Source: Candidatus Yanofskybacteria bacterium
Lineage (GTDB): Bacteria > Patescibacteriota > Minisyncoccia > 2-02-FULL-40-12 > GWA2-44-9
Direction of reading: 5' to 3'
Length of the DNA: 60,933 bases
NCBI GenBank assembly: GCA_903830625.1
Contig: CAIKUK010000024.1
Location: 1 to 60,933 of the forward strand
The position numbers and the translations under genes are program-made. Positions 1,074 to 47,090 of the stretch are shown one piece after another. Each line of letters begins with the position of its first letter. The stretch's first letter is position 1. The notes under the pieces are model-generated. The model made no database searches. It was not told the DNA's origin and saw only the letters and a program-made list of their open reading frames with translations.

Positions 1074-1180
1074 ATCCCGTTAGACATTGTAGCTGGCGGA
1101 ATATGACGATTAATCAAGATATGTGCAGAATAAAAACTATTTTAAAAATTATAAATATACAATCCAATGTCTAACGGGAT
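1074..1180. mobile_element. MITE-like element, CCCGTTAGA family (copy a)
   Basis: Perfect 16-bp inverted repeat ATCCCGTTAGACATTG (1074-1089) / CAATGTCTAACGGGAT (1165-1180) around an AT-rich core; right end fused to the parB ATG. Confidence 0.7.
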
Positions 1181-2063
1181 GAACAAAAAATTCTTCGGAC
1201 TAGGCAAGGGACTGGGTTCTTTAATTCCCGAAGGCGCTAAGGCCTTGCATCCAACGACTCAAAAAGAGAATGTTTTTTATGTGGAAATTGCCAAAATTGA
1301 AGCTAATCCCAATCAGCCTCGCCATGATTTTGATGAAGAAGCGCTCAAAGAATTATCCGGCTCTATCCGCAAATATGGCGTCCTCCAGCCGTTATTGGTT
1401 TCCAAAATGGAAACCTTGTCGCCGAAGGGGATAGACGTTTCTTATAGTTTAATCGCCGGCGAACGCCGTCTGCGCGCCGCCAAGATGGCCGGCTTGCCTC
1501 ATGTGCCGGTTATCATCCGTGATGATTTTAAAGAGGATAAGGAGCGTTTGGAAGTGGCGTTAATCGAAAATGTCCAGCGTGAAGATTTAAATCCATTGGA
1601 AGAAGCCGAAGCTTACCAGAAGCTTTCAAAAGATTTCAGCCTGACCCAAAAAGAGATCGCCGATAAAGTCGGCAAGTCCCGTGAAGTCGTGGCCAACACC
1701 ATCCGGTTGCTTAATTTGCCTCAAGACATTCAGAACTCTCTCCGAGCCGGCAAGATCGCTCGCGCCAGCGCCCGCGCGCTTCTGGCTTTCAGTGATCCGG
1801 CCAAACAGCGCCAAGTTTATGAAAGTATTTTGGCTGGCGGAGTTTCTTCCCGCGATGTGGAAACGGCGGCCGCGGTCAACAAACCCAGCGTCAAAAAGCC
1901 CCGCGTTACCGACCGAAAATTTATTGAACTTGAAAAAAATCTGGCCGATACACTCGGTACTCACGTCCAAATCCACGGTGCCGCTTCTTCTGGCGGAAAA
2001 ATCGTCATCAAATTCGCCTCGTTAGAAGACCTCAACAAGATTGCGAAGAACATCATCGACTAA
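1179..2063 (+). CDS. parB: ParB/Spo0J partition protein (start ATG 1179; ORF-track start 1167 lies inside the repeat)
   Basis: GLGKGLGSLI N-terminal motif, NPNQPRHDF, GVLQPLLV, LIAGERRLRAA, ALIENVQREDLNPLEEA, HTH. Confidence 0.95.
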   Translation: MNKKFFGLGKGLGSLIPEGAKALHPTTQKENVFYVEIAKIEANPNQPRHDFDEEALKELSGSIRKYGVLQPLLVSKMETLSPKGIDVSYSLIAGERRLRAAKMAGLPHVPVIIRDDFKEDKERLEVALIENVQREDLNPLEEAEAYQKLSKDFSLTQKEIADKVGKSREVVANTIRLLNLPQDIQNSLRAGKIARASARALLAFSDPAKQRQVYESILAGGVSSRDVETAAAVNKPSVKKPRVTDRKFIELEKNLADTLGTHVQIHGAASSGGKIVIKFASLEDLNKIAKNIID

Positions 2064-2094
2064 TAGTCGCTCCGTCTTGCGCCCCTCTCGGACC

Positions 2095-2127
2095 GATAAA
2101 AACCTGCCCCAGTGGCAGGTTTTTATC
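2095..2127. terminator. Bidirectional intrinsic terminator
   Basis: 14-bp perfect stem GATAAAAACCTGCC/GGCAGGTTTTTATC between convergent genes. Confidence 0.8.
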
Positions 2128-2144
2128 TAGATGCTCGCCTTAGG

Positions 2145-2345
2145 TCAGGGTTTCAGGGGCTGTCGCCATGCGGTCCAAATAACAATAAGTGAGGCGATAA
2201 GGCCGATGCCAGTCCTTCCAAGTCGCGCTGCGGACGCTCCCTGTGCTAGCTCGGTCAGAATTCCAATTGCAAAAAGGATGGACATCAACGCGAATACTAC
2301 ACGAACGGTCCACAGAGAGATATTGCGAAATGATGTGACTTGCAT
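2145..2345 (-). CDS. Small two-TM membrane protein, unknown function
   Basis: 66 aa with two hydrophobic stretches; minus-strand promoter TTGTCA-N17-TATAAT upstream (about 2397-2369). Confidence 0.6.
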   Translation of the reverse strand: MQVTSFRNISLWTVRVVFALMSILFAIGILTELAQGASAARLGRTGIGLIASLIVIWTAWRQPLKP

Positions 2346-2400
2346 ATGGAAGTGAATGTTACACTCACATTATAAACGCCTAAGTCAAAGCTGACAACAT

Positions 2401-2676
2401 TTATAGCTGAGCAGTCTTCTTCGTGTTCTTGCACTGCGGGAAACCTGAGCAGGCGAGGAAGGGGCCAAACTGGCCATTGCGTTTCAGGAGTGGTTTGCCG
2501 CACTTATCGCATAATTGGTCTGTTATTTCGGCGGGTTGTTGGGCTTTCTTTTCAATATATTTACAGTTCGGATAATTCGAACAGGCCGTGAAGTTTCCGT
2601 AACGGCCCGATTTAACGACTAGATTGCCGGAGTTACACTCGGGGCAAGTTTTGCCTACGTTAGATTGCTGGTTCAT
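2401..2676 (-). CDS. Stand-alone topoisomerase-type C4 zinc-ribbon protein (2 repeats)
   Basis: CPEC...GRYGNFTACSNYPNC and CDKC...GQFGPFLACSGFPQC; overlaps the topA stop by 17 nt. Confidence 0.85.
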   Translation of the reverse strand: MNQQSNVGKTCPECNSGNLVVKSGRYGNFTACSNYPNCKYIEKKAQQPAEITDQLCDKCGKPLLKRNGQFGPFLACSGFPQCKNTKKTAQL

Positions 2677-4987
2677 TTAATTTTGGTTCCTCGCTAGTAG
2701 AATTTTCAATTGCCTTCGGCTCGGCAGAATTTGAAAATTCACTACCCGACTTACGCTTTCCGTATTTCTTCGCAGGTTTAACTGGTTTTTCTTTCCAAGT
2801 TTTCAGGGCCTCTTGAAGTTCGGCCTCGCTTTCGGGCTTCTTGCTCATCAAGAAGGTGCAGTCGGGCCAGCGGGAACAGGCGTAGAATAATTTGCCTCGG
2901 CCGCGTGATTTCTTTTCCACCACATCACCGACGACCCATCCTTCGTCAAGACTTCGGAGGGCAAGGCAATTCGGACATTTAAATCCGGTTTTGTTGAAGA
3001 TCTTGGAGATGCCTTTACAAGTTGGATAATCCACACAGCCAAGGAAGTAACCGAAGCGTCCGCGCTTCACTTCCATGGGTTTTGAACAGATGGGGCAAAG
3101 TTCGCCTTTGGTTTGTTCCTGAAGCTGTTTGATTTTGGCCGCTTCTTCGGGCAGGGGGAGCGAGACTTTGCTGCCTGGTTCTGGGCAGGCCAGGAATTTG
3201 CCCATCCGCCCGAATTTAACCAGCATCATTTTACCGCAGTGCGGGCAGGGGGTGGTGGATTCCACAATTAATTTATCAACGCTTTCCGTTTTTTCTTTGA
3301 GATTTTTGCTGAATGGTGTGTAGAATTCTTCCACCACCGGGACCCATTTGATTTTGCCTTCGGCGATTTCGTCGAATTCTTCTTCAATGTGAGAAGTGAA
3401 ATTGATATCAATGACTTCGGGAAAATTCTCCACGAGCATGTCATTGACCGAGAAACCGATTTCGGTGGGTTTATATTTCTTGTCTTCTTTTTCTACGTAG
3501 CCTCGGTCCTGAATGGTGGTCAAAGTGGGCGCGTAAGTGGATGGCCGGCCGACACCGGCGGCTTCCAAAGTCTTGATAAGCGAAGCATCAGTATATCGCG
3601 GAGGCGGTTCGGTGAAATGCTGGTCTTTGGACAGGTCAATGAGATTCAATAATTCTTTTTCGGATAATTCCGGAAGCTGGCCTTCTTCATAGGAATCTTC
3701 TTCGCTTTTTTCATCTTCTTCTTTAGTTTCGGTGTAAGCGCGGATGAAACCATCAAATTTAATGGCTTGGCCGTTGGCGCGGAATGTGTATTTTGGACCG
3801 GCGGATATGTCAGCGGCGGTTTGATCAAGAACGGCGACCTGCATTTGGCAAGCAATGGTCCGTTTCCAGATTAAATCGTAAAGCCGTAGCTGGCCGGAAT
3901 CCAAATCCTTATCGAGACTCTCGGGCAGACGGGATAGATCGGTCGGTCGGACGGCTTCATGGGCTTCCTGAGCGCCTTTGGATTTATTAATAAATGAACG
4001 GGGTGCATCAAGGCAATACTTGGCGCCGAATTCTTTTTTGATGACTTCTTGAGCTTGGGCCAAAGCGATTTCAGAAATATTCAAACTGTCGGTACGCATG
4101 TAGGTAATCATGCCGGTCTCGTATAATCGCTGGGCCAAGGTCATGGTCTGTTTGGCGGAGAAGCCGAGTTTCTTGGCCGCTTCCTGTTGGAGAGTGGAAG
4201 TGGTGAACGGTGCCGGCGGGGTGCGGCGGACTTCTTTTTTGACGACTTCAATGACTTTATATTCGGCGCCGGCCAAAGCGTCGGTTATTTTTTGGGCTTC
4301 GGCCGAGTTTTTGACGCCCAAGCGGTCAATTGATTCTTCGCCGACTTTAACCAGCCGGGCTTTAAAAGTTTTATCTTCGTCTTTTTTGGAGAGTGAAGCT
4401 TCGACGGACCAGTATTCTTGAGGCCTGAATTTTTGGATTTCTCGTTCGCGTTCCACCACTAAACGCACAGCCACGCTTTGAACGCGCCCGGCGGAAAGGC
4501 CGGAACGGATTTTCTTCCAAAGAAACGGCGATAATTTGTAACCGACGAGACGGTCGATAATCCGCCGAGCCTGCTGGGCATCAACCAGATTCTGGTCAAT
4601 CTCCCGCGGATGGGCGATAGCTTTTTCAATAGCCTGTTTGGTGATTTCATGAAAGACCACACGGTCTGTTTTCTTGGTGTTTGATTTTTTATCCAGACCA
4701 AGGGCGTGGGCTAAATGCCAAGCAATGGCTTCGCCTTCGCGGTCAGGGTCGGTGGCTAGGATTACCGTATCGGCTTTGGCGGTGTCGCTTTTGAGTTCGC
4801 TGACAATCTTCTTAGCTTTGGCGGGGATGATATATTCAGGTTTGAAATCGTGAGCAATATCAATACCAATGCCTTTTTTAGGCAGATCACGGATATGGCC
4901 GAAAGATGATTTAACAATAAAATCGCCGCCGAGGAAGCGGGAGATAGTTTTAGCTTTGGTTGGACTCTCAACGATTATTAATTGCAT
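2660..4987 (-). CDS. topA: DNA topoisomerase I (type IA); true start ATG 4987
   Basis: LIIVESPTKAKTI, ATDPDREGEAIAW, SAGRVQS, LITYMRTDS-like catalytic motif, AQEAHEAVRPT, GRPSTYA, C-terminal Zn ribbons. Confidence 0.97.
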   Translation of the reverse strand: MQLIIVESPTKAKTISRFLGGDFIVKSSFGHIRDLPKKGIGIDIAHDFKPEYIIPAKAKKIVSELKSDTAKADTVILATDPDREGEAIAWHLAHALGLDKKSNTKKTDRVVFHEITKQAIEKAIAHPREIDQNLVDAQQARRIIDRLVGYKLSPFLWKKIRSGLSAGRVQSVAVRLVVEREREIQKFRPQEYWSVEASLSKKDEDKTFKARLVKVGEESIDRLGVKNSAEAQKITDALAGAEYKVIEVVKKEVRRTPPAPFTTSTLQQEAAKKLGFSAKQTMTLAQRLYETGMITYMRTDSLNISEIALAQAQEVIKKEFGAKYCLDAPRSFINKSKGAQEAHEAVRPTDLSRLPESLDKDLDSGQLRLYDLIWKRTIACQMQVAVLDQTAADISAGPKYTFRANGQAIKFDGFIRAYTETKEEDEKSEEDSYEEGQLPELSEKELLNLIDLSKDQHFTEPPPRYTDASLIKTLEAAGVGRPSTYAPTLTTIQDRGYVEKEDKKYKPTEIGFSVNDMLVENFPEVIDINFTSHIEEEFDEIAEGKIKWVPVVEEFYTPFSKNLKEKTESVDKLIVESTTPCPHCGKMMLVKFGRMGKFLACPEPGSKVSLPLPEEAAKIKQLQEQTKGELCPICSKPMEVKRGRFGYFLGCVDYPTCKGISKIFNKTGFKCPNCLALRSLDEGWVVGDVVEKKSRGRGKLFYACSRWPDCTFLMSKKPESEAELQEALKTWKEKPVKPAKKYGKRKSGSEFSNSAEPKAIENSTSEEPKLNEPAI
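2935..2962 (-). repeat. REP-like palindrome inserted in frame in topA
   Basis: GCCCTCCGAAGTCTTGACGAAGGATGGG resembles intergenic CCCTCCGAAGCCTTGGCGAAGGAGGG at 40074-40099, with a compensatory change in the inner stem. Confidence 0.6.
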
Positions 4988-4997
4988 GTACGATAAT

Positions 4998-5864: not shown

Positions 5865-5930
5865 TAGTCTATATTACTCCCGGAAACTGGAAAAAAGCAA
5901 ATTAGTGTGTTAGATTGCAATACATATAAC

Positions 5931-6647: not shown

Positions 6648-6649
6648 AA

Positions 6650-8265: not shown

Positions 8266-8297
8266 TTTTCTGATAGAGTATAATTACCAAGAGGCCT

Positions 8298-14473: not shown

Positions 14474-14548
14474 TCCCGTTAGAAGTAAGACGCCATTTTA
14501 TGGCATCTGCCGGCCATGCCTTCTAGGCAGGCCGGACTTCTAACGGGA
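14474..14548. mobile_element. MITE-like element, CCCGTTAGA family (copy b)
   Basis: 13-bp inverted repeat TCCCGTTAGAAGT / ACTTCTAACGGGA with a GC-rich palindromic core. Confidence 0.7.
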
Positions 14549-14592: not shown

Positions 14593-17172
14593 ATGCTCCC
14601 GACCATAAGAATGCCTTTTGGGGCAATGTTTGACGTTAAGCCGGTAGATGATTCTGGTTCGCTTGATGTTCAAAAAATAGACGCCGTTCAGCCGGTGGTT
14701 AATCTAGCTTCTTTCAGGCCTAAAAAATCCAGACATAAAAATGCTAGCGCTTCGATACCGACATTGAATTCAAGGCCGGCCGAAATATCGGGACAAGTTT
14801 CAAATCAAGTGTCGGAATCGCAGGTGCTTCCGCCGGCGATAGGTTTGCCGTCTCATCAGGACATCAAAGAACAATTTGACGAGCTGATGGGCCATGATCT
14901 TGATTTGGGTGTGGAATTGACCAAGATGGGCTTGTCGGTGCAGACGAATACTAATCAAAGCAAGCCTCGCTACCGGGTTATTAAAAACCGTTCCAGATTT
15001 GAATCTAGTCAATATGCGCCCCTTATTTCGGCGATTTATCATTCCGCCAATACGATTGCCAGAGAAGAATATGCCCCACCTGAATCAGTCGATAATTTTA
15101 AAGTTGAAACCGGGTCTATGCCGGCTTTTGTGCCTGGCGAGCTCTCTCAATCGGCCGAGACCGATGTGCGGTCGCTTTTTTACACTCCTTCAGTCGAACT
15201 TATCGCTAAAAAGAAATCTTTTTCGAGGACAACCAGAATTAGAAAATGGCCTAAACTTAAAATTTCTAGAACTTATGTTTTAATTGCCATCGCTTCTGTT
15301 GTGGCTTTGGCGCTTATCATTGTCTACGGTCTTCGTGTTAAAAAACAAGTTATTCAGGATAGTGCGGCGGCGGTAACCAATCTTCAAACTGCCCAGGATA
15401 GTTTGAAAACTTTGGATTTCAAAAATGCTTCCCAAGATTTCTTTTCGGCTTATGCCAATTTTTCTAAAGCGGGGAATAGTCTGAACGTATTCGGTGCGGC
15501 TCTAACCAGTATTATTGCTGATTTGCCCGGCGGTGGAACGCTTAAATCGGCCAAAAATCTTTTACAAGTCGGCCAATTGCTTTCGGCTGCCGGCACGTCC
15601 ATGACGACGGCTTTAAACGCGGTCGCCAAAACCGGTGCTGTCTCCGATCCGACCAATCCTCAAGTGCCAATCGGCCCGATTGTTACGGCTTTAAAAAAAG
15701 CCCTGCTCGCTTCCCAACAACAAGTCGCCCAAGCCAGCGCGCTCATGGCGGATATCGACAGCAGTGTCATTCCGGCCGACAAGCAAGCCGGTTTTGCCGA
15801 TTTGAAATCAAAAATGCCGGAGTTTGAAGCCGGCGTGAACATGAGCGCCGATTACGCCAAGTTTTTTGAAAACCTGATTAACAGCGGCAAGGCAAAATAT
15901 TTGGTGATGTTCCAGAACGGTTCCGAACTTCGGCCGACGGGCGGATTCCCCGGCACGTATGGCGTGGTTTCATTCACAAACGGCAAAATGGATAATCTTT
16001 TCGTAGATGACGTTTACAATCTGGATGGCCAGATTAAAGAAAATATTATTCCGCCACTTCAGATGCAGCACATTACGCCTACTTGGGGGATGCGTGATGC
16101 CAACTGGTATATTGATTTTCCGACCTCGGCCCGCAATATTGAAACCTTCTATAAAAAAGAATCGGGCCAAAGCGTAGATGGCGTCATTTTCATCAACCCC
16201 GAAATGATTACCAAGATTCTTGATATCGTCGGGCCGATTGAAATGCCTCAATATAAACTGACACTGACCGCCAATAATGTCTTGACCACTATTCAGAGTG
16301 AAGTAGAATACGGCGCCAATCGGACCCAGCCGAAGCAAATCTTAAAAGATTTCGCGCCATTGCTTTTGGCAAAAATGTATAATGCCGGCTCCGATAAATG
16401 GCTGACGATTTTTAACACCCTTATTTTAAGCATGAATCAGCGGGACGTACTGATGAGTTTTGATAATTTATCACTCGAAAGTTTTGTGACTGACAAAGGT
16501 TTTGGCGGGCAGGTCCATCAAGGCGATGCCGATTATTTAATGGCGACAATCACGAACATTAAAGGTTCCAAGACCGATGCCGTGACCGATACTTCACTGG
16601 CGGTGGATACGGTGTTTGATAACACCACGGCGGTCCACACGCTGACCATTACTCGCCAACACAATGGCGGGGGAGCGAAATATGGATTTTATAATAAACA
16701 AAATCCGGCCTATGTCCGCGTGCTGGTGCCGGATGGCGCGGAACTTGTTTCCGTTGACGGCAACGATAAACCCAATTTTGCCCCATTAGTAAATTACTCT
16801 AATTCTAATTTTGTCCGTGATGATAATCTGGTTAAATTTGAAACCAGTGGCAAGACCGACAATACCACTGGTGTCATTACTTATCGTGAAGCGGGCAAGA
16901 CCGAATTTGGTTTTTGGCTTATCACCGATCCTGGCAAAACAAAAACTGTGACGGTTAAATATCGTGTGTCTAAAGCTCTGACCGACAAATCATATTCACT
17001 CTATGTTCAGAAACAACCCGCCTTGAAAATAAAGAGTTTCAGTTTCTCAATGCAAAAGCCGGACGGTCTCACGCCCACCGAATCGTATCCGCTTCTGACG
17101 TCCAAAGATTCCGGCTACAGCTACTCCGGTCCGTTGGAAAACGACCTGACAGTCAAAGTGAATTTCCGCTAG
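14593..17172 (+). CDS. DUF4012-domain membrane-anchored protein
   Basis: Single TM; YLVMFQNGSELRPTGGF, RDANWYIDFPTSA, VDGVIFI motifs as recalled for DUF4012; in a glycan cluster. Confidence 0.8.
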   Translation: MLPTIRMPFGAMFDVKPVDDSGSLDVQKIDAVQPVVNLASFRPKKSRHKNASASIPTLNSRPAEISGQVSNQVSESQVLPPAIGLPSHQDIKEQFDELMGHDLDLGVELTKMGLSVQTNTNQSKPRYRVIKNRSRFESSQYAPLISAIYHSANTIAREEYAPPESVDNFKVETGSMPAFVPGELSQSAETDVRSLFYTPSVELIAKKKSFSRTTRIRKWPKLKISRTYVLIAIASVVALALIIVYGLRVKKQVIQDSAAAVTNLQTAQDSLKTLDFKNASQDFFSAYANFSKAGNSLNVFGAALTSIIADLPGGGTLKSAKNLLQVGQLLSAAGTSMTTALNAVAKTGAVSDPTNPQVPIGPIVTALKKALLASQQQVAQASALMADIDSSVIPADKQAGFADLKSKMPEFEAGVNMSADYAKFFENLINSGKAKYLVMFQNGSELRPTGGFPGTYGVVSFTNGKMDNLFVDDVYNLDGQIKENIIPPLQMQHITPTWGMRDANWYIDFPTSARNIETFYKKESGQSVDGVIFINPEMITKILDIVGPIEMPQYKLTLTANNVLTTIQSEVEYGANRTQPKQILKDFAPLLLAKMYNAGSDKWLTIFNTLILSMNQRDVLMSFDNLSLESFVTDKGFGGQVHQGDADYLMATITNIKGSKTDAVTDTSLAVDTVFDNTTAVHTLTITRQHNGGGAKYGFYNKQNPAYVRVLVPDGAELVSVDGNDKPNFAPLVNYSNSNFVRDDNLVKFETSGKTDNTTGVITYREAGKTEFGFWLITDPGKTKTVTVKYRVSKALTDKSYSLYVQKQPALKIKSFSFSMQKPDGLTPTESYPLLTSKDSGYSYSGPLENDLTVKVNFR

Positions 17173-17374
17173 GGTTCTCAGTTTTTCTCAGGCTTCCGCT
17201 CGGACTATTTCTAGTCGCTTCTCTTAATTTCTCTGGCCGTCCGAAGCAACTCCTGTCGGGCCATGCGGCCTTCGGCCGTTCCCGACATCCTCGGGCCGGC
17301 ACCCAGAGAAATAACATCGAAGCTCCTGAAATAGTAGCCGATTGTGCAGATTGAGAAAAACTGAGAATCCTAGC
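17168..17374. repeat. About 207-bp long-hairpin element overlapping a stop codon
   Basis: 23-bp inverted repeat GCTAGGGTTCTCAGTTTTTCTCA / TGAGAAAAACTGAGAATCCTAGC (1 mismatch) plus nested internal stems. Confidence 0.7.
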
Positions 17375-19745: not shown

Positions 19746-21539
19746 ATGAATATCAGGAATTTCGTCATCATCGCCCATATTGACCATGGAAAATCGACCC
19801 TCGCGGATCGATTTTTAGAATTGACCGGCACCGTGGAAAAAAGAAAAATGCATGAACAGTATTTGGATACGATGGAACTGGAGCAGGAACGGGGTATTAC
19901 CATCAAGCTTCAGCCGGTCCGGATGAATTACAACTACCAAGGCGAGGATTACATGCTCAATTTGATTGATACGCCGGGGCATGTAGATTTTACTTATGAA
20001 GTTTCCCGTTCTCTGGCGGCGGTGGAAGGAGCGATTCTTTTGGTGGATGCTTCCAAAGGTATTCAAGCCCAGACATTGGCTAATTTACACTTGGCTCAAC
20101 AGCAAAAATTGGTCATCATTCCGGTTTTAAATAAAATTGACTTACCCAATGCCCGCACGGCGCAAGTCAGGGAAGAGCTGTCTTATTTGCTGGGCGTGGA
20201 ACCGGAAGAGATTTTAGAAATATCGGCCAAAAGCGGCCAGGGTGTGGAAGAAGTTCTTAAAAAAGTAATTGCCAAAGTTCCGGCACCGGCCATGACCACT
20301 GATGGCGCCGAATTAAAAGCTTTAATCTTTGATTCCACGTTTGATACTTACAAAGGCGTCATTGCTTATGTCCGTGTTTTTAGTGGTTCATTTAAACAAA
20401 CCATGCCAATCGTGGCCTATGCTTCGCGGGCCAAAGCCGATGTTCTAGAAATTGGCTATTTTTCTCCTGGTTTGGTTGAGTCTAAGATTTTAGGTCCGGG
20501 CGAGATTGGGTACATTGCCACTGGCTTGAAAGATCCGGGTCTGATCCGTGTCGGCGATACTATTACCGGTCCGGCGATGCTGGAAAAACATTCTTTTAAG
20601 GCCTTGGCTGGATATAAAGAGCCTCGACCGATGGTCTTTGCCAGTTTTTTCCCGGTGGAAGGCGAAGCTTATGATTTACTCAAAGATGCGCTATCAAAGC
20701 TCAAACTGACCGACGCCTCGCTAATTTATGAACCAGAATCTTCCGCCGGCTTGGGCCGGGGATTTAGAGTTGGATTCTTGGGCATGCTTCACGTGGAAAT
20801 CATATCCGAGCGGTTACATCGGGAGTTCAATTTAAATCTGATCATCTCCACGCCTTCGGTGGAGTATTTGGTTGATTTAAAAAACGGCGAACAAGTTTCT
20901 ATCCGTTCGGCGGCGATGTTGCCCGATCCGTCCCGAGTGGAAGCCGTTTTGGAACCGATCGTGGCTTTGGAAATCTTAACCCCGATTACGTATTTGGGCG
21001 GAGTGATGGAATTAATCGCCACCTACCGCAATACTTATCAGGCGACGGAATATATCGGTAAAGAAACCGCGCTTCTTAAATATGACATGCCGTTATCCGA
21101 AATCGTGACCGATTTTTATGACCGACTGAAAAGCGTTTCTTCCGGTTATGCTTCCATGAGCTATGAACCGAAAGGCGTAACTAGAAATGATTTAATCCGA
21201 TTAGATGTGCTTATTGCCGGCGATTTGGTGGAACCATTTTCGCGCATCGTGCCGCGCGAAAAAGCCTATCTGGAAGGCCGGGCCATGGTCACGAAATTAA
21301 AAGAAGTTGTGCCGCCCCAAATGTTTGAAGTTTCCATTCAGGCCGCTATTGGAGGCAAGGTCATTGCCGCCGAATCTATCCGGGCCAAGAGAAAAGACGT
21401 CACTCAGCATATGTACGGCGGAGACATTACGCGGCGTCAAAAACTCTGGAAAAAACAAAAAGCAGGGAAAGAACGCATGAAAGAGACTGGCCGGGTAAAT
21501 CTTCCCCAAGAAGTTTTCTTAAAGATGCTAAAACGCTGA
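19746..21539 (+). CDS. lepA: Elongation factor 4 (LepA)
   Basis: IRNFVIIAHIDHGKSTLADR, RGITIK, DTPGHVDF, GFLGMLH, YGGDITRRQKL. Confidence 0.98.
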   Translation: MNIRNFVIIAHIDHGKSTLADRFLELTGTVEKRKMHEQYLDTMELEQERGITIKLQPVRMNYNYQGEDYMLNLIDTPGHVDFTYEVSRSLAAVEGAILLVDASKGIQAQTLANLHLAQQQKLVIIPVLNKIDLPNARTAQVREELSYLLGVEPEEILEISAKSGQGVEEVLKKVIAKVPAPAMTTDGAELKALIFDSTFDTYKGVIAYVRVFSGSFKQTMPIVAYASRAKADVLEIGYFSPGLVESKILGPGEIGYIATGLKDPGLIRVGDTITGPAMLEKHSFKALAGYKEPRPMVFASFFPVEGEAYDLLKDALSKLKLTDASLIYEPESSAGLGRGFRVGFLGMLHVEIISERLHREFNLNLIISTPSVEYLVDLKNGEQVSIRSAAMLPDPSRVEAVLEPIVALEILTPITYLGGVMELIATYRNTYQATEYIGKETALLKYDMPLSEIVTDFYDRLKSVSSGYASMSYEPKGVTRNDLIRLDVLIAGDLVEPFSRIVPREKAYLEGRAMVTKLKEVVPPQMFEVSIQAAIGGKVIAAESIRAKRKDVTQHMYGGDITRRQKLWKKQKAGKERMKETGRVNLPQEVFLKMLKR

Positions 21540-21803
21540 CCCTACCTCAGTAATACTTCCTAGCCGCGTTCTTTGCTATGTTATCCGATATGCTAGGCAC
21601 GACGAGGAAGAATACTGGTAGTATTCTGACGAGGAGTAACAAAGCAGATCGGGAACATAGCGAGAACCCTTCGGGATACGGCAAATTTTATCTATGTCTG
21701 CGTCGCTCGTCTTCGACATACTTCCGGTATGTCTTATCCTTGCTTCTTGACCTAGAAAAAATTTGCCAGTATCGCGGCATGAAAGTATTATTGAGGTAGG
21801 GTC
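21538..21803. repeat. 266-bp inverted-repeat/hairpin element at the lepA stop
   Basis: 31-bp imperfect inverted repeat (27/31) 21538-21568 / 21773-21803; internal hairpins GAATAC-TGGTA-GTATTC and GACATAC-TTCCG-GTATGTC. Confidence 0.65.
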
Positions 21804-23453: not shown

Positions 23454-24188
23454 GTGACGGAATATGAGCACAATAAGGCTCTTTTATATATCTTTTCAGG
23501 GGCCGGTGGCACAGATGCTCAAGACTGGGCGTCCATGTTGCTCACAATGTATCGCAAATACTCGGCCAAGCAGGGCTGGGGTTTTACGATTTTGAGCCAG
23601 TCGTTCGGCGAACAGGATGGCACCAAGAATGCCGTCATTGAAATATCGGGTCCGAACTGCTATGAGATGCTTCGGCGGGAAAACGGCGTCCATCGCTTAG
23701 TCCGCATTTCGCCTTATTCAGCCAAAGATTTGCGCCACACATCATTTGCGCTGGTGGAGTTTATGCCCGAGATTATTGTCAAGAATTTTAAGATCAATCC
23801 TAACGATTTGCGGATAGATACGTACAGATCGTCAGGGCCGGGCGGGCAGAACGTGAATAAACTGGAAACGGCGGTGCGCATTACCCATCTTCCGACAGGC
23901 CTGGCCGTTGCCGTTCAGTCGGAACGGTCCCAAGTCCAGAATAAAGAAAAAGCGATGCAAGTGCTGGTCTCACGCCTGGCCCAAAAGATGGAGGCTGAAA
24001 AAACCCAAGAACTTTCGCAGTTGAAACCCCAAGTCGCGATCGAGTGGGGCAGTCAAATCAGGTCATATGTTTTGAACCCGTATCAAATGGTTAAAGACCA
24101 CCGCACGGGAGTAAAATCTTCTCAACCCGATAAAGTGCTCGATGGCGAGCTCGATAAATTTATCGCCGGCGAGAAAGAATTATCATAA
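23454..24188 (+). CDS. prfB: Peptide chain release factor 2 lacking domain 1
   Basis: SGAGGTDAQDWASML, ENGVHRLVRISPY (SPF variant), HTSFA, SSGPGGQNVNK, WGSQIRSYVLNPY, DHRTG. Confidence 0.9.
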   Translation: MTEYEHNKALLYIFSGAGGTDAQDWASMLLTMYRKYSAKQGWGFTILSQSFGEQDGTKNAVIEISGPNCYEMLRRENGVHRLVRISPYSAKDLRHTSFALVEFMPEIIVKNFKINPNDLRIDTYRSSGPGGQNVNKLETAVRITHLPTGLAVAVQSERSQVQNKEKAMQVLVSRLAQKMEAEKTQELSQLKPQVAIEWGSQIRSYVLNPYQMVKDHRTGVKSSQPDKVLDGELDKFIAGEKELS

Positions 24189-24871: not shown

Positions 24872-25776
24872 AAAAAGCGTTCAAAAGAATTTTCCGAAGC
24901 GGCTGGATTAATTTTAAGCGCAACAGCTATCTAAGTTTTGGCACCACCGGCATTATGGCCCTGGTGTTGCTTTTATTTTCAGGCCTGATGGTTTTAAATT
25001 ATGTTTCCGGGCAGATTGTGACCGGTCTGGAAGATAAAGTGGACATCAGTGTCTATTTTAAAAATAACGCTTCGGAAGACCAGGTCATGGCGGTGGAGCA
25101 GGATTTGGAAGCTCAATCGGACGTGGCAAGTGTCACCTATATCTCCAAAGATAAAGCGCTGGCCGATTTCAAAACCAACCATGCCGGCGACGCTTTAATC
25201 CAGCAATCGCTGGCCGAACTGGCCGATAATCCGTTGCAGTCGTCACTCAATGTCAAAGCCAAAGATTCCACCCAGTACGCGTCAATCGTGACCTTCATCG
25301 AAGGTAACAAGCTCCGGTCCGTGATTGATAAGATAAATTTCTATGAAAATGAAGCGGTCATCAACCGCGTGGAGAGCATTTCTAATGGCGTGGGCAATTA
25401 CGGATTGGGGATTACTCTGGTTTTGGCCTTTATCGCTGTCCTAGTAACTTTTAACACTATCCGCCTGACCATTTACAACCAAAAGAATGAAATCGAAATT
25501 ATGCGTCTGGTCGGCGGTTCCAACTGGCACGTCAAAGCCCCATTCCTGGTTGAAGGAGGATTGTACGGCATTTTCGCGGCCACAATCGCCATTGTTATTT
25601 TTTATCCGACGCTCTGGTTCGTCTCATCCAAAGTGGGCGTTCTTATTCCCGGTCTTAGTCTCCTTGGCTACTTCGGCGCTAATTTCTTCCAGTTCGTGCC
25701 GTTAATCTTTGCCCTAGGTATTTCTCTGGGGGTTATCTCCAGTTTCATCGCCATCAGAAGATTTCTAAAAGTTTAA
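24868..25776 (+). CDS. ftsX: Cell division permease FtsX
   Basis: 4-TM layout, NTIRLTIY..KNEIEIMRLVGGS, PFLVEG. Confidence 0.93.
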   Translation: MKKAFKRIFRSGWINFKRNSYLSFGTTGIMALVLLLFSGLMVLNYVSGQIVTGLEDKVDISVYFKNNASEDQVMAVEQDLEAQSDVASVTYISKDKALADFKTNHAGDALIQQSLAELADNPLQSSLNVKAKDSTQYASIVTFIEGNKLRSVIDKINFYENEAVINRVESISNGVGNYGLGITLVLAFIAVLVTFNTIRLTIYNQKNEIEIMRLVGGSNWHVKAPFLVEGGLYGIFAATIAIVIFYPTLWFVSSKVGVLIPGLSLLGYFGANFFQFVPLIFALGISLGVISSFIAIRRFLKV

Positions 25777-25938
25777 TTTTGGCGATCTGCTTTGTTGCGG
25801 GTTGCAGCCATTTTTCTCTTATGGCTGGCTACGCACAGCCAAGAAAAATGGCCTGCGGTACTCATTCGCCGTATCCCTAATACGGCTCATTCCGTTCCTC
25901 GCCCGCGCCTCGCATCTCATCCAAAATTAAACTTTTAG
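25765..25938. repeat. 174-bp inverted-repeat/hairpin element at the ftsX stop
   Basis: Perfect 18-bp inverted repeat CTAAAAGTTTAATTTTGG / CCAAAATTAAACTTTTAG; internal stems GCCATTTTTCT/AGAAAAATGGC and GCCGTAT/ATACGGC. Confidence 0.7.
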
Positions 25939-35795: not shown

Positions 35796-35868
35796 ATCCC
35801 GTTAGAAGTCTCGCTCGCGCCCTAGGCGCGAGTCCGGAGGACCTTGGCGGGGCTACTTCTAACGGGAT
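35796..35868. mobile_element. MITE-like element, CCCGTTAGA family (copy c)
   Basis: 14-bp inverted repeat ATCCCGTTAGAAGT / ACTTCTAACGGGAT; fused to ATG 35867. Confidence 0.75.
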
Positions 35869-38292: not shown

Positions 38293-38302
38293 GGATAGTT
38301 TG

Positions 38303-38420
38303 AGGCTCCGAGCCTGCCATGAGTTGGGTTGTACGATCATTATCCCTCCTTGATTGGGCATAACCCTATTCAATAAAAGAGCATAATCTTTTATTATGAA
38401 TCATGGCAGGCTCGGAGCCT
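38303..38420. repeat. 118-bp inverted-repeat element
   Basis: Perfect 20-bp inverted repeat AGGCTCCGAGCCTGCCATGA / TCATGGCAGGCTCGGAGCCT. Confidence 0.7.
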
Positions 38421-38431
38421 TAACTCACTTG

Positions 38432-38503
38432 TCCCGTACGAAGTCTCGCTCGCGCCTCAGGCGCGAGTCCGAAGGACCTCGGCGAGGATACTTCGTTTGG
38501 GAT
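38432..38503. mobile_element. MITE-like element, CCCGTTAGA family (copy d, diverged)
   Basis: 45-nt core 39/45 identical to copy c; ends TCCCGTACGAAGT / ACTTCGTTTGGGA; fused to ATG 38502. Confidence 0.7.
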
Positions 38504-39530: not shown

Positions 39531-39535
39531 TACCT

Positions 39536-39544: not shown

Positions 39545-39648
39545 ATTAGGCCCTTGCTTGCTTTTTTAAACGATATACAATTAGTTTCAAGAGTTATATT
39601 GGGACTGGTCCCAAATAGTGTTAGAACCAGCAAATATCCAGAGATACG

Positions 39649-39677
39649 TTGACTTTTAGGGATGGTTACGCTAGTAT
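39649..39677 (+). promoter_or_regulatory. Candidate promoter of the S-layer gene
   Basis: TTGACT-N17-TAGTAT about 470 bp upstream of the ATG. Confidence 0.5.
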
Positions 39678-40073: not shown

Positions 40074-40099
40074 CCCTCCGAAGCCTTGGCGAAGGAGGG
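40074..40099. repeat. REP-like palindrome
   Basis: CCCTCCGAAGCC-TT-GGCGAAGGAGGG. Confidence 0.6.
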
Positions 40100-40146
40100 C
40101 GCGATCGGCACTGGAATCGCAAAACAGAAAAAATAGTAAAAATAAA

Positions 40147-43647: not shown

Positions 43648-43690
43648 CATCGTTACTTTGTAAATCTCGAGATTCGCGCGATGGCGTTTC

Positions 43691-43730
43691 TCGTAACCAA
43701 AAACCCCCTTTAGGGGGTTTTTGGTTACGA
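43691..43730. terminator. Intrinsic terminator
   Basis: Stem TCGTAACCAAAAACCCCC / GGGGGTTTTTGGTTACGA. Confidence 0.85.
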
Positions 43731-43783
43731 CGATGACAGACTTTTATATTGAAAGTTTATTAAATCAGGATTATACTAAGGGC

Positions 43784-44860: not shown

Positions 44861-44904
44861 CAATTAATAAATAATTTTCCGATAGTTATATTGGGCTTAA
44901 ACCA

Positions 44905-45426
44905 ATGAAAATACCAAAAAATATCTACATTTATTCAATTATCGCCACAGTCATCGTTGGGGCGGTAATATTCTGGATTAGCCGGGCGGACAATAAAATT
45001 GATGATGTTGTGGATATGTCAACTCTCTTTGGTGCCAGCCCCAGTCCGGATCAGTCTCCTCTTCCATCTCAAACTCCCAGATTATCCAATAACACCCCCA
45101 AGCCGACACCAGGAATTATCGTTAGTGAGGTGGCCAGTTACCAGTCTTGGGTTAAGTGGCTTGATCCTCAAAATAGGCGCTTGGCTTTAGATGAGGACTG
45201 TACTAGTATTGTGCCATCGCAAGTTGATTATCCAAACAATGTTGAAGTAATGCTCGATAATTCAGCTTCGAATAAGCCTCGGATTTTAAAAATTGGCAGT
45301 CAAAATTATTCCCTTAACGCTCAAGGCTGGATAGTTACTACTCTTCACAGTGAAACACTTCCGGCAAAACTGACGATGTTTTGCGGAGATATGGAGTTAG
45401 GACAACTTGACCTGGTAGCCAAATAG
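44905..45426 (+). CDS. Membrane-anchored hypothetical protein (possible cupredoxin-like beta domain)
   Basis: N-terminal TM, Pro/Ser linker, C...C beta-rich domain. Confidence 0.7.
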   Translation: MKIPKNIYIYSIIATVIVGAVIFWISRADNKIDDVVDMSTLFGASPSPDQSPLPSQTPRLSNNTPKPTPGIIVSEVASYQSWVKWLDPQNRRLALDEDCTSIVPSQVDYPNNVEVMLDNSASNKPRILKIGSQNYSLNAQGWIVTTLHSETLPAKLTMFCGDMELGQLDLVAK

Positions 45427-45430
45427 AAAA

Positions 45431-45474
45431 TAAGAAACCTAAAACTCCCCTCGAGGGGAGTTTTAGGTTTCTTA
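45431..45474. terminator. Bidirectional terminator
   Basis: Perfect 44-bp palindrome TAAGAAACCTAAAACTCCCC-TCGA-GGGGAGTTTTAGGTTTCTTA between convergent genes. Confidence 0.85.
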
Positions 45475-46671
45475 AAGCAGTTTTTCTATTTGTTTAATTG
45501 TAGTTTCAATATTGAAGGCAAAGAGAACGCGTTGGTGAGCCTGGATGCCCATCTCTTGGGCTCGGGAATTGTTATCAATAAGTACGATGACCTTTTCTGA
45601 TATTTGGCCCGGATTTCTCGGTTCGACGATGTATCCACTTACGCCGTCCTCTATTATTTCGGGGATTGCTCCAACTCGGGTGGCAATGACCGGTAATTTG
45701 GCGGCCATGGCCTCCAAAATGGCCCAAGGGAAGCCTTCTTTTACCGAAGGCAGGACAAACAGGTCAAAAGCTTTTAGGTATCTGGCCGCTTGCTCTCTAT
45801 GGCCAGTAAGGATTACTTTTTCGTCTAACCCCTTGCTCTGGATTAGTTTTTTGAGGCCAGTTCGGCCTTCTCCATCTCCGATAATGCACCATATGACATC
45901 TTCCCGGCCCATTATTTGGGCGGCTCCAATTAGATACTCTAAACCTTTGGCTGGGTAAAAATTAGCAATAGTGCCGACAATTTTTTTCGACAAGGGGAGA
46001 CCTAGTTTGGAGCGAGCTTCATCTTTTTCTAGAAAATTAATTTTATAAGGGTCAAGGCCGTTATGAATTAAAACAAGACTCTGGCGGGGTTTAATGCCAA
46101 TTTCTTTGGCTTGGTCTAGATCACGAGCATTATTAACAATGATGACATCTTTCCAAGGAGCGCTTATCTTTTCGAGTGTTTGCCAGAGTCTCTTTTTCCA
46201 CACTGGCCAAGGATCATTGAACGTCCAACCACCAATACGATAAACTACTTTCGGTCGCGGGTGGCAAAATTTTGACGCTAGTGCTCCAATAAAACCAGCC
46301 TTAGAGCTGGCTAAGAAAAGAGTATCAGGTTTGAATTTTTGGATACATTTTTTAATTTGATCGATGGCTCTAAGATCGGAAAATGGACTAACATTCCGTT
46401 TAAGCGACGAAAGGGTGAGAGCAGGGATTCCGAGGTCGATTAAGGCATGAGTAAATGAACCATCGCCATCAGTTCCGACGGCCACGGTAATATCGTAAGC
46501 ATCTTTCTCTAGTTGTTTGATAAATTGAAGAATAAACTGCTGGGCGCCACCCAGTTCCGATTGGGTAATAACAAATAGAACCCGCTTTTTGGGAACTGGA
46601 GGTGTGCCACCAAAGGCATTGACCCCCACACCTAACGGGTAGTTACTGTTTTTATTTCCATGTTCAGGCAT
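45472..46671 (-). CDS. GT4 glycosyltransferase; N-terminus supplied by an inserted element
   Basis: VLFVITQSELGGAQ, GTIANFYPAKG, KEGFPWAILEAMAAKLPVIAT. Confidence 0.9.
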   Translation of the reverse strand: MPEHGNKNSNYPLGVGVNAFGGTPPVPKKRVLFVITQSELGGAQQFILQFIKQLEKDAYDITVAVGTDGDGSFTHALIDLGIPALTLSSLKRNVSPFSDLRAIDQIKKCIQKFKPDTLFLASSKAGFIGALASKFCHPRPKVVYRIGGWTFNDPWPVWKKRLWQTLEKISAPWKDVIIVNNARDLDQAKEIGIKPRQSLVLIHNGLDPYKINFLEKDEARSKLGLPLSKKIVGTIANFYPAKGLEYLIGAAQIMGREDVIWCIIGDGEGRTGLKKLIQSKGLDEKVILTGHREQAARYLKAFDLFVLPSVKEGFPWAILEAMAAKLPVIATRVGAIPEIIEDGVSGYIVEPRNPGQISEKVIVLIDNNSRAQEMGIQAHQRVLFAFNIETTIKQIEKLL

Positions 46672-46755
46672 ATATTATTTTTATTAAATATAATTCCAAG
46701 CAGTTCTTATCTAGACGACAGCTACTAAGGGATATCTACCCGTTAGGTGTGGGGG
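46623..46755. mobile_element. 133-bp TIR element with 4-bp target duplication (copy e)
   Basis: 20-bp perfect TIR CCCCCACACCTAACGGGTAG / CTACCCGTTAGGTGTGGGGG; TTGA on both flanks; excision restores an in-frame ATG at 46772. Confidence 0.85.
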
Positions 46756-46796
46756 TTGATAGGAGCGTCCATTTATGTTAAAATATTAGCACATTA

Positions 46797-47090
46797 CCCC
46801 CACACTCACAAGGTTTTATGCATTTCGTCTATATCATAAAAAGTAAGGTAAATAAGGACTTATATATGGGGTGTACGGGTGATTTAAAGAAGAGATTTAC
46901 TGAACATAATTCCAATCAGGTTCCATCAACGAAGAACAAAGGACCGTACGAATTAATATACTACGAAGCGTATAAATCAGAGAAGGATGCTTTCAAGCGA
47001 GAGAAAAATCTTAAGCTAAGAGCTAATGCTCTCACCGGGCTGAAGAGAAGACTTTTGGAAAGTCTTAACTAAACCTTGTGAGTGTGGGGG
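46797..47090 (+). mobile_element. 294-bp TIR cassette carrying a GIY-YIG nuclease (copy f)
   Basis: 20-bp perfect TIR CCCCCACACTCACAAGGTTT / AAACCTTGTGAGTGTGGGGG; TA on both flanks; gene fills the whole interior. Confidence 0.85.
46818..47072 (+). CDS. Small GIY-YIG nuclease (UPF0213-like)
   Basis: HFVYII...LYMGCTGDLKKRFTEHN, YELIYYEAY, AFKREKNLK. Confidence 0.9.
   Translation: MHFVYIIKSKVNKDLYMGCTGDLKKRFTEHNSNQVPSTKNKGPYELIYYEAYKSEKDAFKREKNLKLRANALTGLKRRLLESLN

What the first reader, a model, noticed from the sequence alone, without database searches (positions are those of the whole stretch)
1074..47090. Candidate new mobile system: short-TIR cassettes that home to start codons, possibly mobilised by a mini GIY-YIG nuclease
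Seen: six elements with C-rich terminal inverted repeats. Family 1 has CCCGTTAGA ends (1074-1180, 14474-14548, 35796-35868, 38432-38503). Family 2 has CCCCCACAC ends (46623-46755, 46797-47090). The TIR of 46623 contains both motifs (CCCCCACACC+TAACGGG), linking the families. Five of six touch a translation start: three end GGG|ATG exactly, one ends 3 nt before an ATG, and one sits in codons 5-6. Interiors are unrelated cargo: AT-rich filler, GC palindromes, or a complete 84-aa GIY-YIG gene. No DDE, Y1 or tyrosine transposase is visible in the window. Inference: a cassette-type mobile element with conserved ends and variable cargo that inserts at gene starts, where leaderless promoters place it harmlessly. 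The GIY-YIG may be the mobiliser or just a passenger.
Basis: partly seen in the sequence, partly recalled or inferred. Interest (0 to 1): 0.85.

Follow-up and report, generated by a model that had tools for sequence, protein, structure and literature searches.

The report
Tiny GIY-YIG transposons at gene starts
The six repeats are real mobile DNA: one is a roughly 290-bp element that carries only an 84-residue GIY-YIG nuclease gene between inverted ends, the other five are gene-less miniatures of such elements, and they often sit on start codons because insertion rebuilds a start codon on both sides.

Summary
All six elements are at the stated coordinates and five touch a translation start. 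Relatives lack F2a, the GIY-YIG cassette and E4 at exactly these sites. Insertions duplicate 4 bp (TNNA) within a target R|TNNA|Y.

Both end types bracket homologous ~85-aa single-domain GIY-YIG genes elsewhere. CCCCCACAC-type ends flank most of 80 homologues found by protein similarity. CCCGTTAGAAGT ends flank a 280-bp version in 62 contigs. E1-E4 and F2a are therefore ORF-less derivatives. No transposase-sized version exists in 1.65 Mb of loci, and the window encodes no transposase.

Start-codon contact is 18% for miniatures against 1.2% for control RTNNAY sites (p = 2e-16). Many full-length copies have no start codon of their own. They read in frame from the host ATG (ATG AAY|CCC GTT AGA AGT...), and the host gene restarts at a rebuilt RTG.

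The closest known system is the Ssn family of ssDNA nucleases with flanking hairpin repeats (2025). Here the published hairpin motif is absent and the stem is split around the gene. That the nuclease itself moves the element is inferred, not shown. I rate this a new variant of a known kind, of high interest.

The parts
1075..1179 (+). E1: family-1 miniature element (T-CCCGTTAGACATTG ... CAATGTCTAACGGG-A). Duplicated TGAA lies at 1071-1074 and 1180-1183. The parB start ATG (1179-1181) is made of the element's last base plus TG of the duplication.
   Evidence: 16/16 IR; an ORF runs from the flank ATG (1064 or 1070) through the element and stops at TAA in the right end (MNMNPVRH...SNV*). ParA upstream, ParB downstream; ssDNA hairpin z = -4.0.
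14474..14548 (+). E2: family-1 miniature element between two genes. It has perfect ends but no matching flank duplication (TTTA / CAAG).
   Evidence: fold -30.6 kcal/mol, z = -10.1; the PVRS frame is open up to the DF* stop in the right end.
35797..35867 (+). E3: family-1 miniature element with a GC-rich interior, on the start codon of the DUF5671 gene. Left flank ATTGAT, right flank ATGGAT. The insertion is 75 nt, in frame and free of stop codons.
   Evidence: present at the same site in relative L125 with a compensatory stem change, and absent in L122 (aaaaatATGGATaca).
38432..38502 (+). E4: decayed copy of E3 (84% identical) on the start codon of the LTD-domain gene. The right flank is TGAA.
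   Evidence: absent in L125 (ctcatcATGAACgat), L122 and L123; in frame and stop-free.
46623..46755 (.). F2a: family-2 miniature element (CCCCCACACC...GGTGTGGGGG) with an AT-rich interior. Duplicated TTGA lies at 46619-46622 and 46756-46759. It is inserted between codons 5 and 6 of the minus-strand GT4 gene. An internal ATG (46671, minus strand) restores an in-frame start.
   Evidence: 24 nt, 96%; empty sites in L125 and L122 read gcaTTGAtac; the original frame stops in the element end (MDAPINPHT*), and the new start gives MPEHGNKNSNYPLGVGVNAFGG...
46797..47090 (+). F2b: full-length family-2 element, with 22-nt perfect inverted ends bracketing the nuclease gene. It is inserted just upstream of the ATG (47094) of a GT4 gene.
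   Evidence: absent in L125 and L122 (ttagcacatATGcag); the same architecture occurs in about 70 of 80 homologues.
46818..47072 (+). GIY-YIG nuclease gene, 84 aa, single domain, with the catalytic residues intact (Y5, Y16, R26, H30, E62).
   Evidence: PF01541, E = 1e-16; invariant columns; weak match to 1zg2; 40% identical to an Azospirillum Ssn-type protein flanked by SRM hairpins.

Best explanation
The window holds members of a family of very small transposable elements.

The full-length form is about 280-300 bp. It consists of 12-22-bp terminal inverted repeats that begin Y-CCC(C/G), and between them a single gene for an ~85-aa single-domain GIY-YIG nuclease related to the Ssn ssDNA nucleases. 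F2b is such an element. E1-E4 (ends CCCGTTAGA) and F2a (ends CCCCCACAC) are gene-less miniature derivatives of two sister lineages.

Shown:
- Insertion occurs at R|TNNA|Y and duplicates TNNA.
- Because the element's outer bases are Y and R, both junctions again read RTNNAY.
- At a start codon A|TGAA|Y, the left junction keeps ATG AAY and the right junction makes a new RTG start. The host protein is therefore unchanged.
- Many full-length family-1 copies have no start codon. They are read in frame from the host ATG through the end (M-N-P-V-R-S...). Their stop codon lies in or just before the right end, 8-15 nt before the rebuilt host start.

Inferred:
- The nuclease recognises its own ends, probably as a snapped-back stem in single-stranded DNA, as Ssn enzymes recognise their hairpins.
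- It cuts in the variable flank a few bases outside the stem.
- It makes a 4-nt staggered cut at RTNNAY targets.
- Host repair or ligation completes the move.
- Selection then keeps copies at gene boundaries. For start-less copies, only insertions on a start codon are expressed.
For: Duplication and target:
- In 120 family-1 elements from other genomes, the central four flank positions match at 75-79% in one register only. The outer bases are Y and R.
- Among family-2 cassettes, 26 of 49 match at 3-4 of 4 positions, against 9 of 53 in the shifted control.

Empty sites in syntenic relatives exist for F2a, F2b, E4 and E3.

Both end types bracket GIY-YIG genes:
- About 70 of 80 protein-found homologues carry C-run...CAC ends.
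- The metagenome scan gave 50 stretches and the genome scan 12 stretches with CCCGTTAGAAGT ends 250-280 bp apart. Most encode an 85-aa GIY-YIG.

Size classes: only two exist, under 200 bp and 200-450 bp. No pair spans 450-3000 bp in 1.65 Mb.

Catalytic residues are invariant across both lineages. Their spacing matches the SsnA active-site residues Y6/Y17/E64 (PMC11893778).

Start codons:
- Enrichment with odds ratio 18, p = 1.8e-16.
- 20 of 28 start-less copies sit on an in-frame ATG, and 19 of 28 are followed by RTG plus a host ORF.
- Core lengths are biased to multiples of three (62/26/22, p = 1.8e-6).

Spread: two copies 85% identical lie at different start codons in one MAG, and copies 92% identical occur across classes.

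No transposase is encoded in the window.

Ssn enzymes bind a hairpin and cut upstream of it in the variable flank. They also accept a stem formed from two separate halves (PMC11893778).
Against: - GIY-YIG enzymes are hydrolytic nucleases. None is known to join DNA, so the integration step needs host functions and has no precedent.
- A 4-bp duplication is what DDE transposases typically leave.
- Physical linkage alone would make the ends and the gene co-diverge, so covariation does not prove recognition.
- E2 and E4 lack matching duplications, and about a quarter of copies have imperfect ones.
- Three independent assemblies of this same genome are 99.99-100% identical, with every element they cover present (E3 and E4 in two assemblies, F2a and F2b in one). 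No insertion polymorphism was seen.
- The published Ssn hairpin motif is absent.
Confidence: 0.62

Rival explanations
1. These are ordinary MITEs moved in trans by a DDE transposase (IS5, IS1380 or piggyBac-like, which leave 4-bp duplications and often have CC(C) ends) encoded elsewhere. The GIY-YIG gene is a passenger or an addiction gene that rides between the ends.
For: The 4-bp TNNA duplication includes TTAA, and the ends start with CCC. This recalls piggyBac and IS1380, but that resemblance rests on my own knowledge and was not tested. The window also holds another hairpin element with CTAG flanks (17168-17374), so more than one TIR system may be active. GIY-YIG chemistry lacks strand transfer.
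Against: No pair of these ends encloses anything larger than about 450 bp in 1.65 Mb taken around 250 copies. There is no transposase domain in the window. The nuclease ORF overlaps both ends, leaving no room for other functions. The same gene-plus-ends unit recurs in many end variants and phyla. A passenger would not be the only content of hundreds of diverged copies.
Confidence: 0.15
2. This is an Ssn-like host or selfish nuclease with its recognition repeats. The nuclease does not transpose the DNA. It cuts single-stranded DNA at these stems (for example incoming transforming DNA or replication intermediates). The repeats spread by recombination, gene conversion or homing-type repair rather than by transposition.
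For: The protein is homologous to an Ssn-type gene flanked by canonical hairpins. Ssn enzymes modulate transformation (PMC11893778). DprA is encoded in the window. E3 is conserved at one site in two diverged genomes, with a compensatory stem change. The elements covered by the other assemblies of this genome are present in all of them.
Against: Variable 4-bp duplications at hundreds of unrelated sites, and precise empty sites, are the footprint of insertion and not of recombination between repeats. Near-identical copies sit at different loci and in different classes. The start-less ORF design only makes sense for an element that lands on start codons.
Confidence: 0.15
3. These are structured RNA leaders or intervening sequences (stems processed by RNase III, or regulatory hairpins at the 5' ends of mRNAs) that are conserved for function, not mobile DNA.
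For: The hairpins are strong (z = -4 to -10). There are compensatory changes in internal stems. Related GIY-YIG cassettes lie inside 23S rRNA genes, as classical intervening sequences do.
Against: No Rfam family matches. The interiors are unrelated between copies. Copies occur in both orientations, in coding regions and after stop codons. Duplications and empty sites show DNA insertion.
Confidence: 0.03

Closest known systems
Ssn nucleases with NTS/SRM repeats (Chenal et al. 2025, Nat Commun, PMC11893778)
   Same: The protein is a single-domain GIY-YIG of about 85-95 aa with the same Tyr-Tyr-Glu spacing. The gene is bracketed by its own stem-forming repeats, an architecture the authors called identical to an insertion sequence. 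There are many gene-less copies of the repeat. The stems begin A-Y-CCC in both (ATCCCCGCG in the Azospirillum example, ATCCCGTTAG and ACCCCCACAC here).
   Different: There, each flank is a complete 20-50-nt hairpin matching HGTCWY...RNCYNB. Here that motif is absent (0 hits in the window), and one stem is split around the whole gene or cargo. The C-terminal protein motif differs. No target duplication, empty site or start-codon use was reported for Ssn, and the authors proposed domestication.
Bacterial MITEs that tolerate or exploit coding regions (Rickettsia palindromic elements, Neisseria Correia elements)
   Same: They are short TIR elements with hairpin potential and many copies. Their lengths are biased so that insertions stay in frame. 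They can supply starts, stops or promoters to neighbouring genes.
   Different: Known MITEs are traced to DDE-transposase IS elements or have no known parent. Here the parent carries only a GIY-YIG nuclease, and the target and ends are built to regenerate start codons. This comparison rests on my own knowledge of those families.
piggyBac / IS1380-type DDE transposons
   Same: They leave a 4-bp duplication of a T..A tetranucleotide (TTAA for piggyBac), their ends begin CCC, and both junctions keep the target motif, which would allow precise excision.
   Different: No DDE transposase lies between the ends, and the elements are five to ten times smaller. The resemblance is recalled from memory and was not tested against ISfinder.
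IS200/IS605 and REP/RAYT systems
   Same: They are very small elements whose enzyme recognises DNA hairpins in single-stranded DNA. Gene-less hairpin copies are amplified in the genome.
   Different: Those use HUH/Y1 transposases, have no terminal inverted repeats and make no duplication.
rRNA intervening sequences with ORFs (23S_rRNA_IVP four-helix-bundle or GIY-YIG ORFs in CPR rRNA insertions; bioRxiv 10.1101/2024.02.27.582315)
   Same: They are stem-bounded insertions that carry one small ORF. GIY-YIG ORFs in CPR rRNA genes were reported in insertions that are not introns. Homologous cassettes lie in 23S genes of a Bacillota MAG.
   Different: The window copies sit at protein-gene boundaries. 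Ends, duplication and start-codon use were not described for the rRNA insertions.
GIY-YIG homing endonucleases (I-TevI, Seg proteins)
   Same: They share the GIY-YIG catalytic fold and are selfish nuclease genes.
   Different: Those have a separate DNA-binding domain and live in introns or between phage genes. They spread by repair from a homologous allele, without inverted ends or duplications.

Membership tests
Ssn nuclease / SRM repeat system | Single-domain GIY-YIG protein shorter than 150 aa | tested here: met
   84 aa; PF01541 covers residues 1-71.
Ssn nuclease / SRM repeat system | Catalytic Tyr, Tyr and Glu (SsnA Y6, Y17, E64) | tested here: met
   Y5, Y16 and E62 are invariant or nearly so in 22 sequences of both lineages. 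The SsnA residues are taken from PMC11893778.
Ssn nuclease / SRM repeat system | Membership of the cd10448 clade | tested here: inconclusive
   No CDD tool was available. The protein is 40% identical over 64 aa to an Azospirillum protein flanked by four canonical SRM hairpins. The C-terminal motif differs. NCBIfam gives only a sub-threshold TIGR01453 match.
Ssn nuclease / SRM repeat system | Gene flanked on both sides by SRM hairpins (HGTCWYN0-2YYVSBRHN0-5WNVSBRGN0-2RNCYNB) | tested here: not met
   0 hits in the window. There are 4 hits in 760 kb of homologue loci, against 4 hits around the single Azospirillum gene used as a positive control.
Ssn nuclease / SRM repeat system | Site-specific cleavage of single-stranded DNA only, upstream of the hairpin | not testable with these tools
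   This needs purified protein.
MITE (non-autonomous TIR element): E1-E4 and F2a | Terminal inverted repeats, small size, no ORF of their own | tested here: met
   Elements are 71-133 bp.
MITE (non-autonomous TIR element): E1-E4 and F2a | Target-site duplication | tested here: met
   E1 has TGAA/TGAA and F2a has TTGA/TTGA. E3 is imperfect (TTGA/TGGA). E2 and E4 have lost it. In the family as a whole the match is 75-79% at the four central positions.
MITE (non-autonomous TIR element): E1-E4 and F2a | Same ends as a longer, protein-coding element | tested here: met
   Full-length GIY-YIG elements exist with CCCGTTAGAAGT ends and with CCCCCACAC ends.
MITE (non-autonomous TIR element): E1-E4 and F2a | Empty sites in related genomes | tested here: met
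   (L125, L122, L123).
DDE-transposase insertion sequences with 4-bp duplication (IS5, IS1380, piggyBac-like) | DDE transposase gene between the ends | tested here: not met
   No end pair spans 450-3000 bp in 1.65 Mb. No transposase Pfam domain in the window.
DDE-transposase insertion sequences with 4-bp duplication (IS5, IS1380, piggyBac-like) | Ends match those of a catalogued IS family | not tested
   No ISfinder-type library was available. A full-text search for the end sequences found nothing relevant.
GIY-YIG homing endonuclease genes | Separate DNA-binding domain; residence in an intron or intein; spread without duplication | tested here: not met
   The 84-aa protein is catalytic domain only. 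Inverted ends and duplications are present. No intron model matches.
Integron attC sites | RYYYAAC ... GTTRRRY cores in that order, next to an integron integrase | tested here: not met
   The motif order is reversed (GTTAGAA at the 5' arm). There is no integrase in the window. The flanks are housekeeping genes.

The most novel reading that the evidence does not exclude
These are the smallest autonomous transposons yet seen, at about 280 bp. Their only protein is an 85-aa GIY-YIG nuclease acting as the mobilising enzyme, a catalytic class not known to drive any prokaryotic transposon. One lineage has given up its own start codon and lives as a parasite of host start codons. It is translated from the host's initiation site and hands a rebuilt RTG start back to the host gene.
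Probability: 0.45. Interest if true: 0.92.

Novelty: new variant of a known kind. Interest (0 to 1): 0.82.

Why it matters
If the nuclease moves these elements, it adds a new enzyme class to the short list of ways DNA transposes. It would also set a new lower size limit for an autonomous mobile element.

It would explain what the very common 'GIY-YIG nuclease family protein' genes and short C-rich palindromes are doing in streamlined genomes of Patescibacteria and other uncultured phyla. It would also give the recently found Ssn nucleases an evolutionary context as transposon-derived.

The start-codon trick is a new solution to the problem of surviving in genomes with almost no intergenic space. 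The element is expressed from the host's initiation signals and returns a rebuilt start codon.

There are two practical consequences:
- Gene callers mis-place starts and fuse ORFs at these sites.
- Nuclease and end pairs with different specificities could extend the ssDNA tool kit proposed for Ssn.

Tried and rejected
- A full-text search for the end sequences found only unrelated primers.
- Rfam, at gathering and at permissive thresholds, and ARAGORN found nothing on the elements.
- I considered an attC/integron reading and rejected it, because the core order is reversed, there is no integrase, and the flanks are housekeeping genes.
- A four-helix-bundle gene in L019 preceded by CCACGTTAGAA looked like a second cargo for family-1 ends. 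Its real flanks are AT-rich repeats, so the match is chance.
- The two family-2 'pairs' of about 550-590 bp: the one I read (L121) lies inside an ordinary coding region and is a chance one-mismatch hit. The other (L141) was not inspected.
- Viral contigs hold 1 miniature and 0 full-length copies, so phages are not the obvious carriers.
- The plasmid collection gave one homologue, an Ssn-type gene in Azospirillum, which I used as a positive control.
- The search for insertion polymorphism found only the same genome: three other assemblies are 99.99-100% identical.
- Exact look-ups of the GIY-YIG protein and two neighbouring proteins found nothing on record.
- I did not run the large homology search, because names alone would not settle membership of the Ssn clade.

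Full report
WHAT IS IN THE WINDOW

The window is a housekeeping stretch of a Patescibacteria (Parcubacteria) genome. It encodes ParA/ParB, topoisomerase I, DprA, LepA, FtsEX, phosphoketolase, acetate kinase and many glycosyltransferases. It also carries RNase P RNA and four tRNAs. The nearest genomes are Yanofskybacteria-like MAGs with 55-71% protein identity. Three other public assemblies hold the same genome at 99.99-100% identity.

All six elements are at the stated coordinates.
- CCCGTTAGA occurs six times exactly, as three inverted pairs, against 0.46 expected.
- CCCCCACAC occurs four times, as two inverted pairs.
- E4 is a decayed copy of E3, 84% identical.
E2 does not.

THE ELEMENTS ARE INSERTIONS

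These came from Patescibacteria, Planctomycetota, Nitrospirota, Elusimicrobia, Omnitrophota, Deltaproteobacteria and a nanoarchaeon.

Their interiors are unrelated, but their flanks are not. In one register only, the four positions next to each end match between left and right at 75-79%. The base adjoining CCCG is Y, and the base adjoining CGGG is the complementary R. The structure is [TNNA]-Y-CCCGTTAGAAGT...ACTTCTAACGGG-R-[TNNA], and the target is R|TNNA|Y.

Syntenic relatives give precise empty sites:
- F2a: the relatives read gcaTTGAtac. The window reads TTGA[CCCCC...GGGGG]TTGA, inside codons 5-6 of a GT4 gene.
- F2b: the relatives read ttagcacatATGcag with no cassette.
- E4: relative L125 reads ctcatcATGAACgat.
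- E3: L122 reads aaaaatATGGATaca. L125 has E3 at the same site, with a compensatory change in an internal stem.

BOTH END TYPES BELONG TO GIY-YIG GENES

I searched with the window's 84-aa protein (PF01541, E = 1e-16). This returned 80 loci at 44-66% identity from many phyla. This search was blind to the ends. Even so, about 70 of the 80 genes are bracketed by inverted repeats of the form (A)CCCCCACACC...GGTGTGGGGG(T) or clade-specific variants such as CCCCGCACC, CCGAGCAC, CCCAGCAC and CCCCTCAC. Of 49 non-redundant cassettes, 26 have flanks matching at 3-4 of 4 positions, mostly TNNA, against 9 of 53 in a shifted control.

I then scanned for the family-1 ends 250-280 bp apart. This found 50 metagenome stretches and 12 genome stretches, the latter all Patescibacteria. 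Most encode an ~85-aa GIY-YIG protein of the form WY.Y.L...WY.GST...R...HN.G.N.STK...PW..IY.E...DA.AREKYLKSG.GRRYLKNRLK. The two protein lineages are 35-47% identical, with invariant Y16, G18, R26, H30, Y48, E50, D57, R61, E62 and K66.

In 1.65 Mb of DNA around these copies, the end pairs fall into only two size classes. Family 1 has 181 pairs under 200 bp and 38 pairs of 200-450 bp. Nothing is transposase-sized. So E1-E4 and F2a are gene-less derivatives of nuclease-only elements, and F2b is a full-length one.

WHY START CODONS

The full-length family-1 elements are extremely compact. The ORF ends in or just before the right end (gAC TTC TAA cggg = D F stop). It begins 5-8 nt after the left end, or it has no start codon at all.

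Among 28 non-redundant start-less copies, 20 have ATG in frame in the flank, read as ATG AAY|CCC GTT AGA AGT... and giving M-N-P-V-R-S. In 19 of them, RTG follows the right end and opens a host ORF of 60-550 codons. The host genes are varied and include TatD-like proteins, glycosyltransferases, RpiB, HisH and epimerases.

The geometry explains this. At a target A|TGAA|Y, the left copy keeps the host ATG. The right copy gains the element's R, which makes ATG or GTG.

The miniatures show the same bias. They contact a start codon in 18.4% of 103 cases, against 1.2% of 9,218 control RTNNAY sites in the same loci (p = 1.8e-16). They contact stop codons 3.4 times more often than controls, and they are depleted inside ORFs. 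Their core lengths favour multiples of three (62/26/22, p = 1.8e-6), so insertions tend to stay in frame.

In the window:
- E1 carries an ORF from the flank ATG to a TAA in its right end, just before the parB ATG.
- E3 and E4 are in frame and stop-free.
- F2a supplies a new in-frame ATG to the gene it interrupts.

I cannot separate targeting from selection. The target motif is only RTNNAY. Survival at gene boundaries, and for start-less copies expression, would produce the enrichment.

HOW IT MOST LIKELY WORKS

The following are shown:
- the insertion footprint;
- the target motif;
- the nuclease-only content;
- the intact catalytic residues;
- the start-codon design;
- spread within and between genomes. 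Two copies 85% identical sit at different starts in one MAG, and copies 92% identical occur across classes.

That the nuclease is the mobilising enzyme is inferred. The nearest characterised proteins are the Ssn nucleases (PMC11893778). These are 94-aa single-domain GIY-YIG enzymes that bind a hairpin repeat in single-stranded DNA and cut a few bases upstream, in the variable flank. They also accept a stem assembled from two separate halves. Their genes are flanked by these repeats in an IS-like arrangement.

An Azospirillum homologue that is 40% identical to the window protein sits between sufB and sufC and is flanked by four canonical hairpins. In the window family that published motif is absent. 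Instead, one stem is split around the gene. The stems begin alike: A-Y-CCC.

I therefore propose the following. The ends snap back in single-stranded DNA. The nuclease cuts in the TNNA flank, and it cuts RTNNAY targets with a 4-nt stagger. Host functions join the DNA. Because both junctions regenerate RTNNAY, precise excision would be possible. The joining step has no precedent for this enzyme class and is the weakest link.

RIVALS

- A DDE transposase acting in trans would explain the 4-bp duplication. However, no such element with these ends was seen.
- A domesticated Ssn-like system with non-transpositional spread fits the fixation of the elements and the conserved E3 site. It does not fit the variable duplications at hundreds of sites.
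- A purely RNA-level role fits the strong hairpins. It does not fit the empty sites or the unrelated interiors.

NOVELTY

The nuclease family and its IS-like flanks were published in 2025, and the authors proposed domestication. In the library I could search, I found no report of target duplications, empty sites, TIR-bounded nuclease-only elements, their miniatures or start-codon capture. A study of CPR rRNA insertions noted GIY-YIG ORFs in non-intron insertions without describing ends. I rate the finding a new variant of a known kind. There is a fair chance that it is a new class of transposon.

The family is large. The window protein matches 4,792 clusters (at 50% identity) at E <= 1e-3.

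Noticed in passing
window 49399-49862: This is a cassette carrying a 129-aa four-helix-bundle gene (23S_rRNA_IVP / TIGR02436, ORF 49426-49815) between 36-nt AT-rich inverted repeats. It is flanked by TTAA on both sides. Relatives L125 and L122 have the empty site (cattaTTAAaaact), where two GT genes overlap by ATGA. It shows the same TNNA-type duplication but has different ends. The insertion changes the last codons of the upstream gene.
   Followed up: partly
window 38300-38423: A 23-nt inverted repeat (96%) encloses a conserved 78-nt interior (gatcattatccctccttgatt) just upstream of E4 and the LTD-domain gene. It is conserved in L125 and, with an internal insertion, in L123. It may be a structured leader or another element. 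No Rfam family matches it.
   Followed up: partly
window 17168-17374, 21538-21803, 25765-25938: Three further hairpin cassettes each begin on the stop codon of the upstream gene (the DUF4012 gene, lepA and ftsX). The first has CTAG on both sides and ends GGTTCTCAG..., and looks like a different MITE family. The other two show no clear duplication.
   Followed up: no
proteins P0013, P0026, P0028, P0032, P0051, P0057, P0113, P0148: Predicted proteins of 240-480 aa consist of an N-terminal GIY-YIG domain fused in frame to type IV pilin-like proteins (...SGAGFTLIE...). The nuclease would occupy the leader that prepilin peptidase removes. These could be start-codon insertions without a stop, or gene-calling fusions.
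   Followed up: no
L200, L202 (also L203, L204), Bacillota MAG JBMNFA01: Homologous GIY-YIG cassettes (ends CTTATCCGGCACTCAAC...) share identical flanks in four loci of one genome. In the two loci scanned with Rfam (L200, L202) the cassette lies inside a 23S rRNA gene, so there it is an rRNA intervening sequence.
   Followed up: partly
L225, L227, L241, L249, L256: Full-length family-1 elements sit at the same non-start site (ATAAAC / GTAAAA) near the 5' end of an HsdM-like gene (VKDLENRLWEAADHMRANS...) in five contigs. This is either one inherited insertion or repeated use of one site. The host gene has no obvious restart codon.
   Followed up: no
L254 2173-2792: Two full-length family-1 elements lie in tandem 30 bp apart, with similar flanks (tctcacga).
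   Followed up: no
window 23454-24188: A release-factor ORF of only 244 aa (the PCRF match starts at profile position 96) begins right after tRNA-Thr. The N-terminal part is missing from this frame.
   Followed up: no
L045 and L065 (one MAG); L080, L115, L120: A family-1 miniature subfamily has a conserved interior (ccaattc.ctgccag.gaattggcagattttatctttgataaaatactt). It sits at different start codons within one genome and in other genomes. Paired differences keep an internal stem intact.
   Followed up: partly
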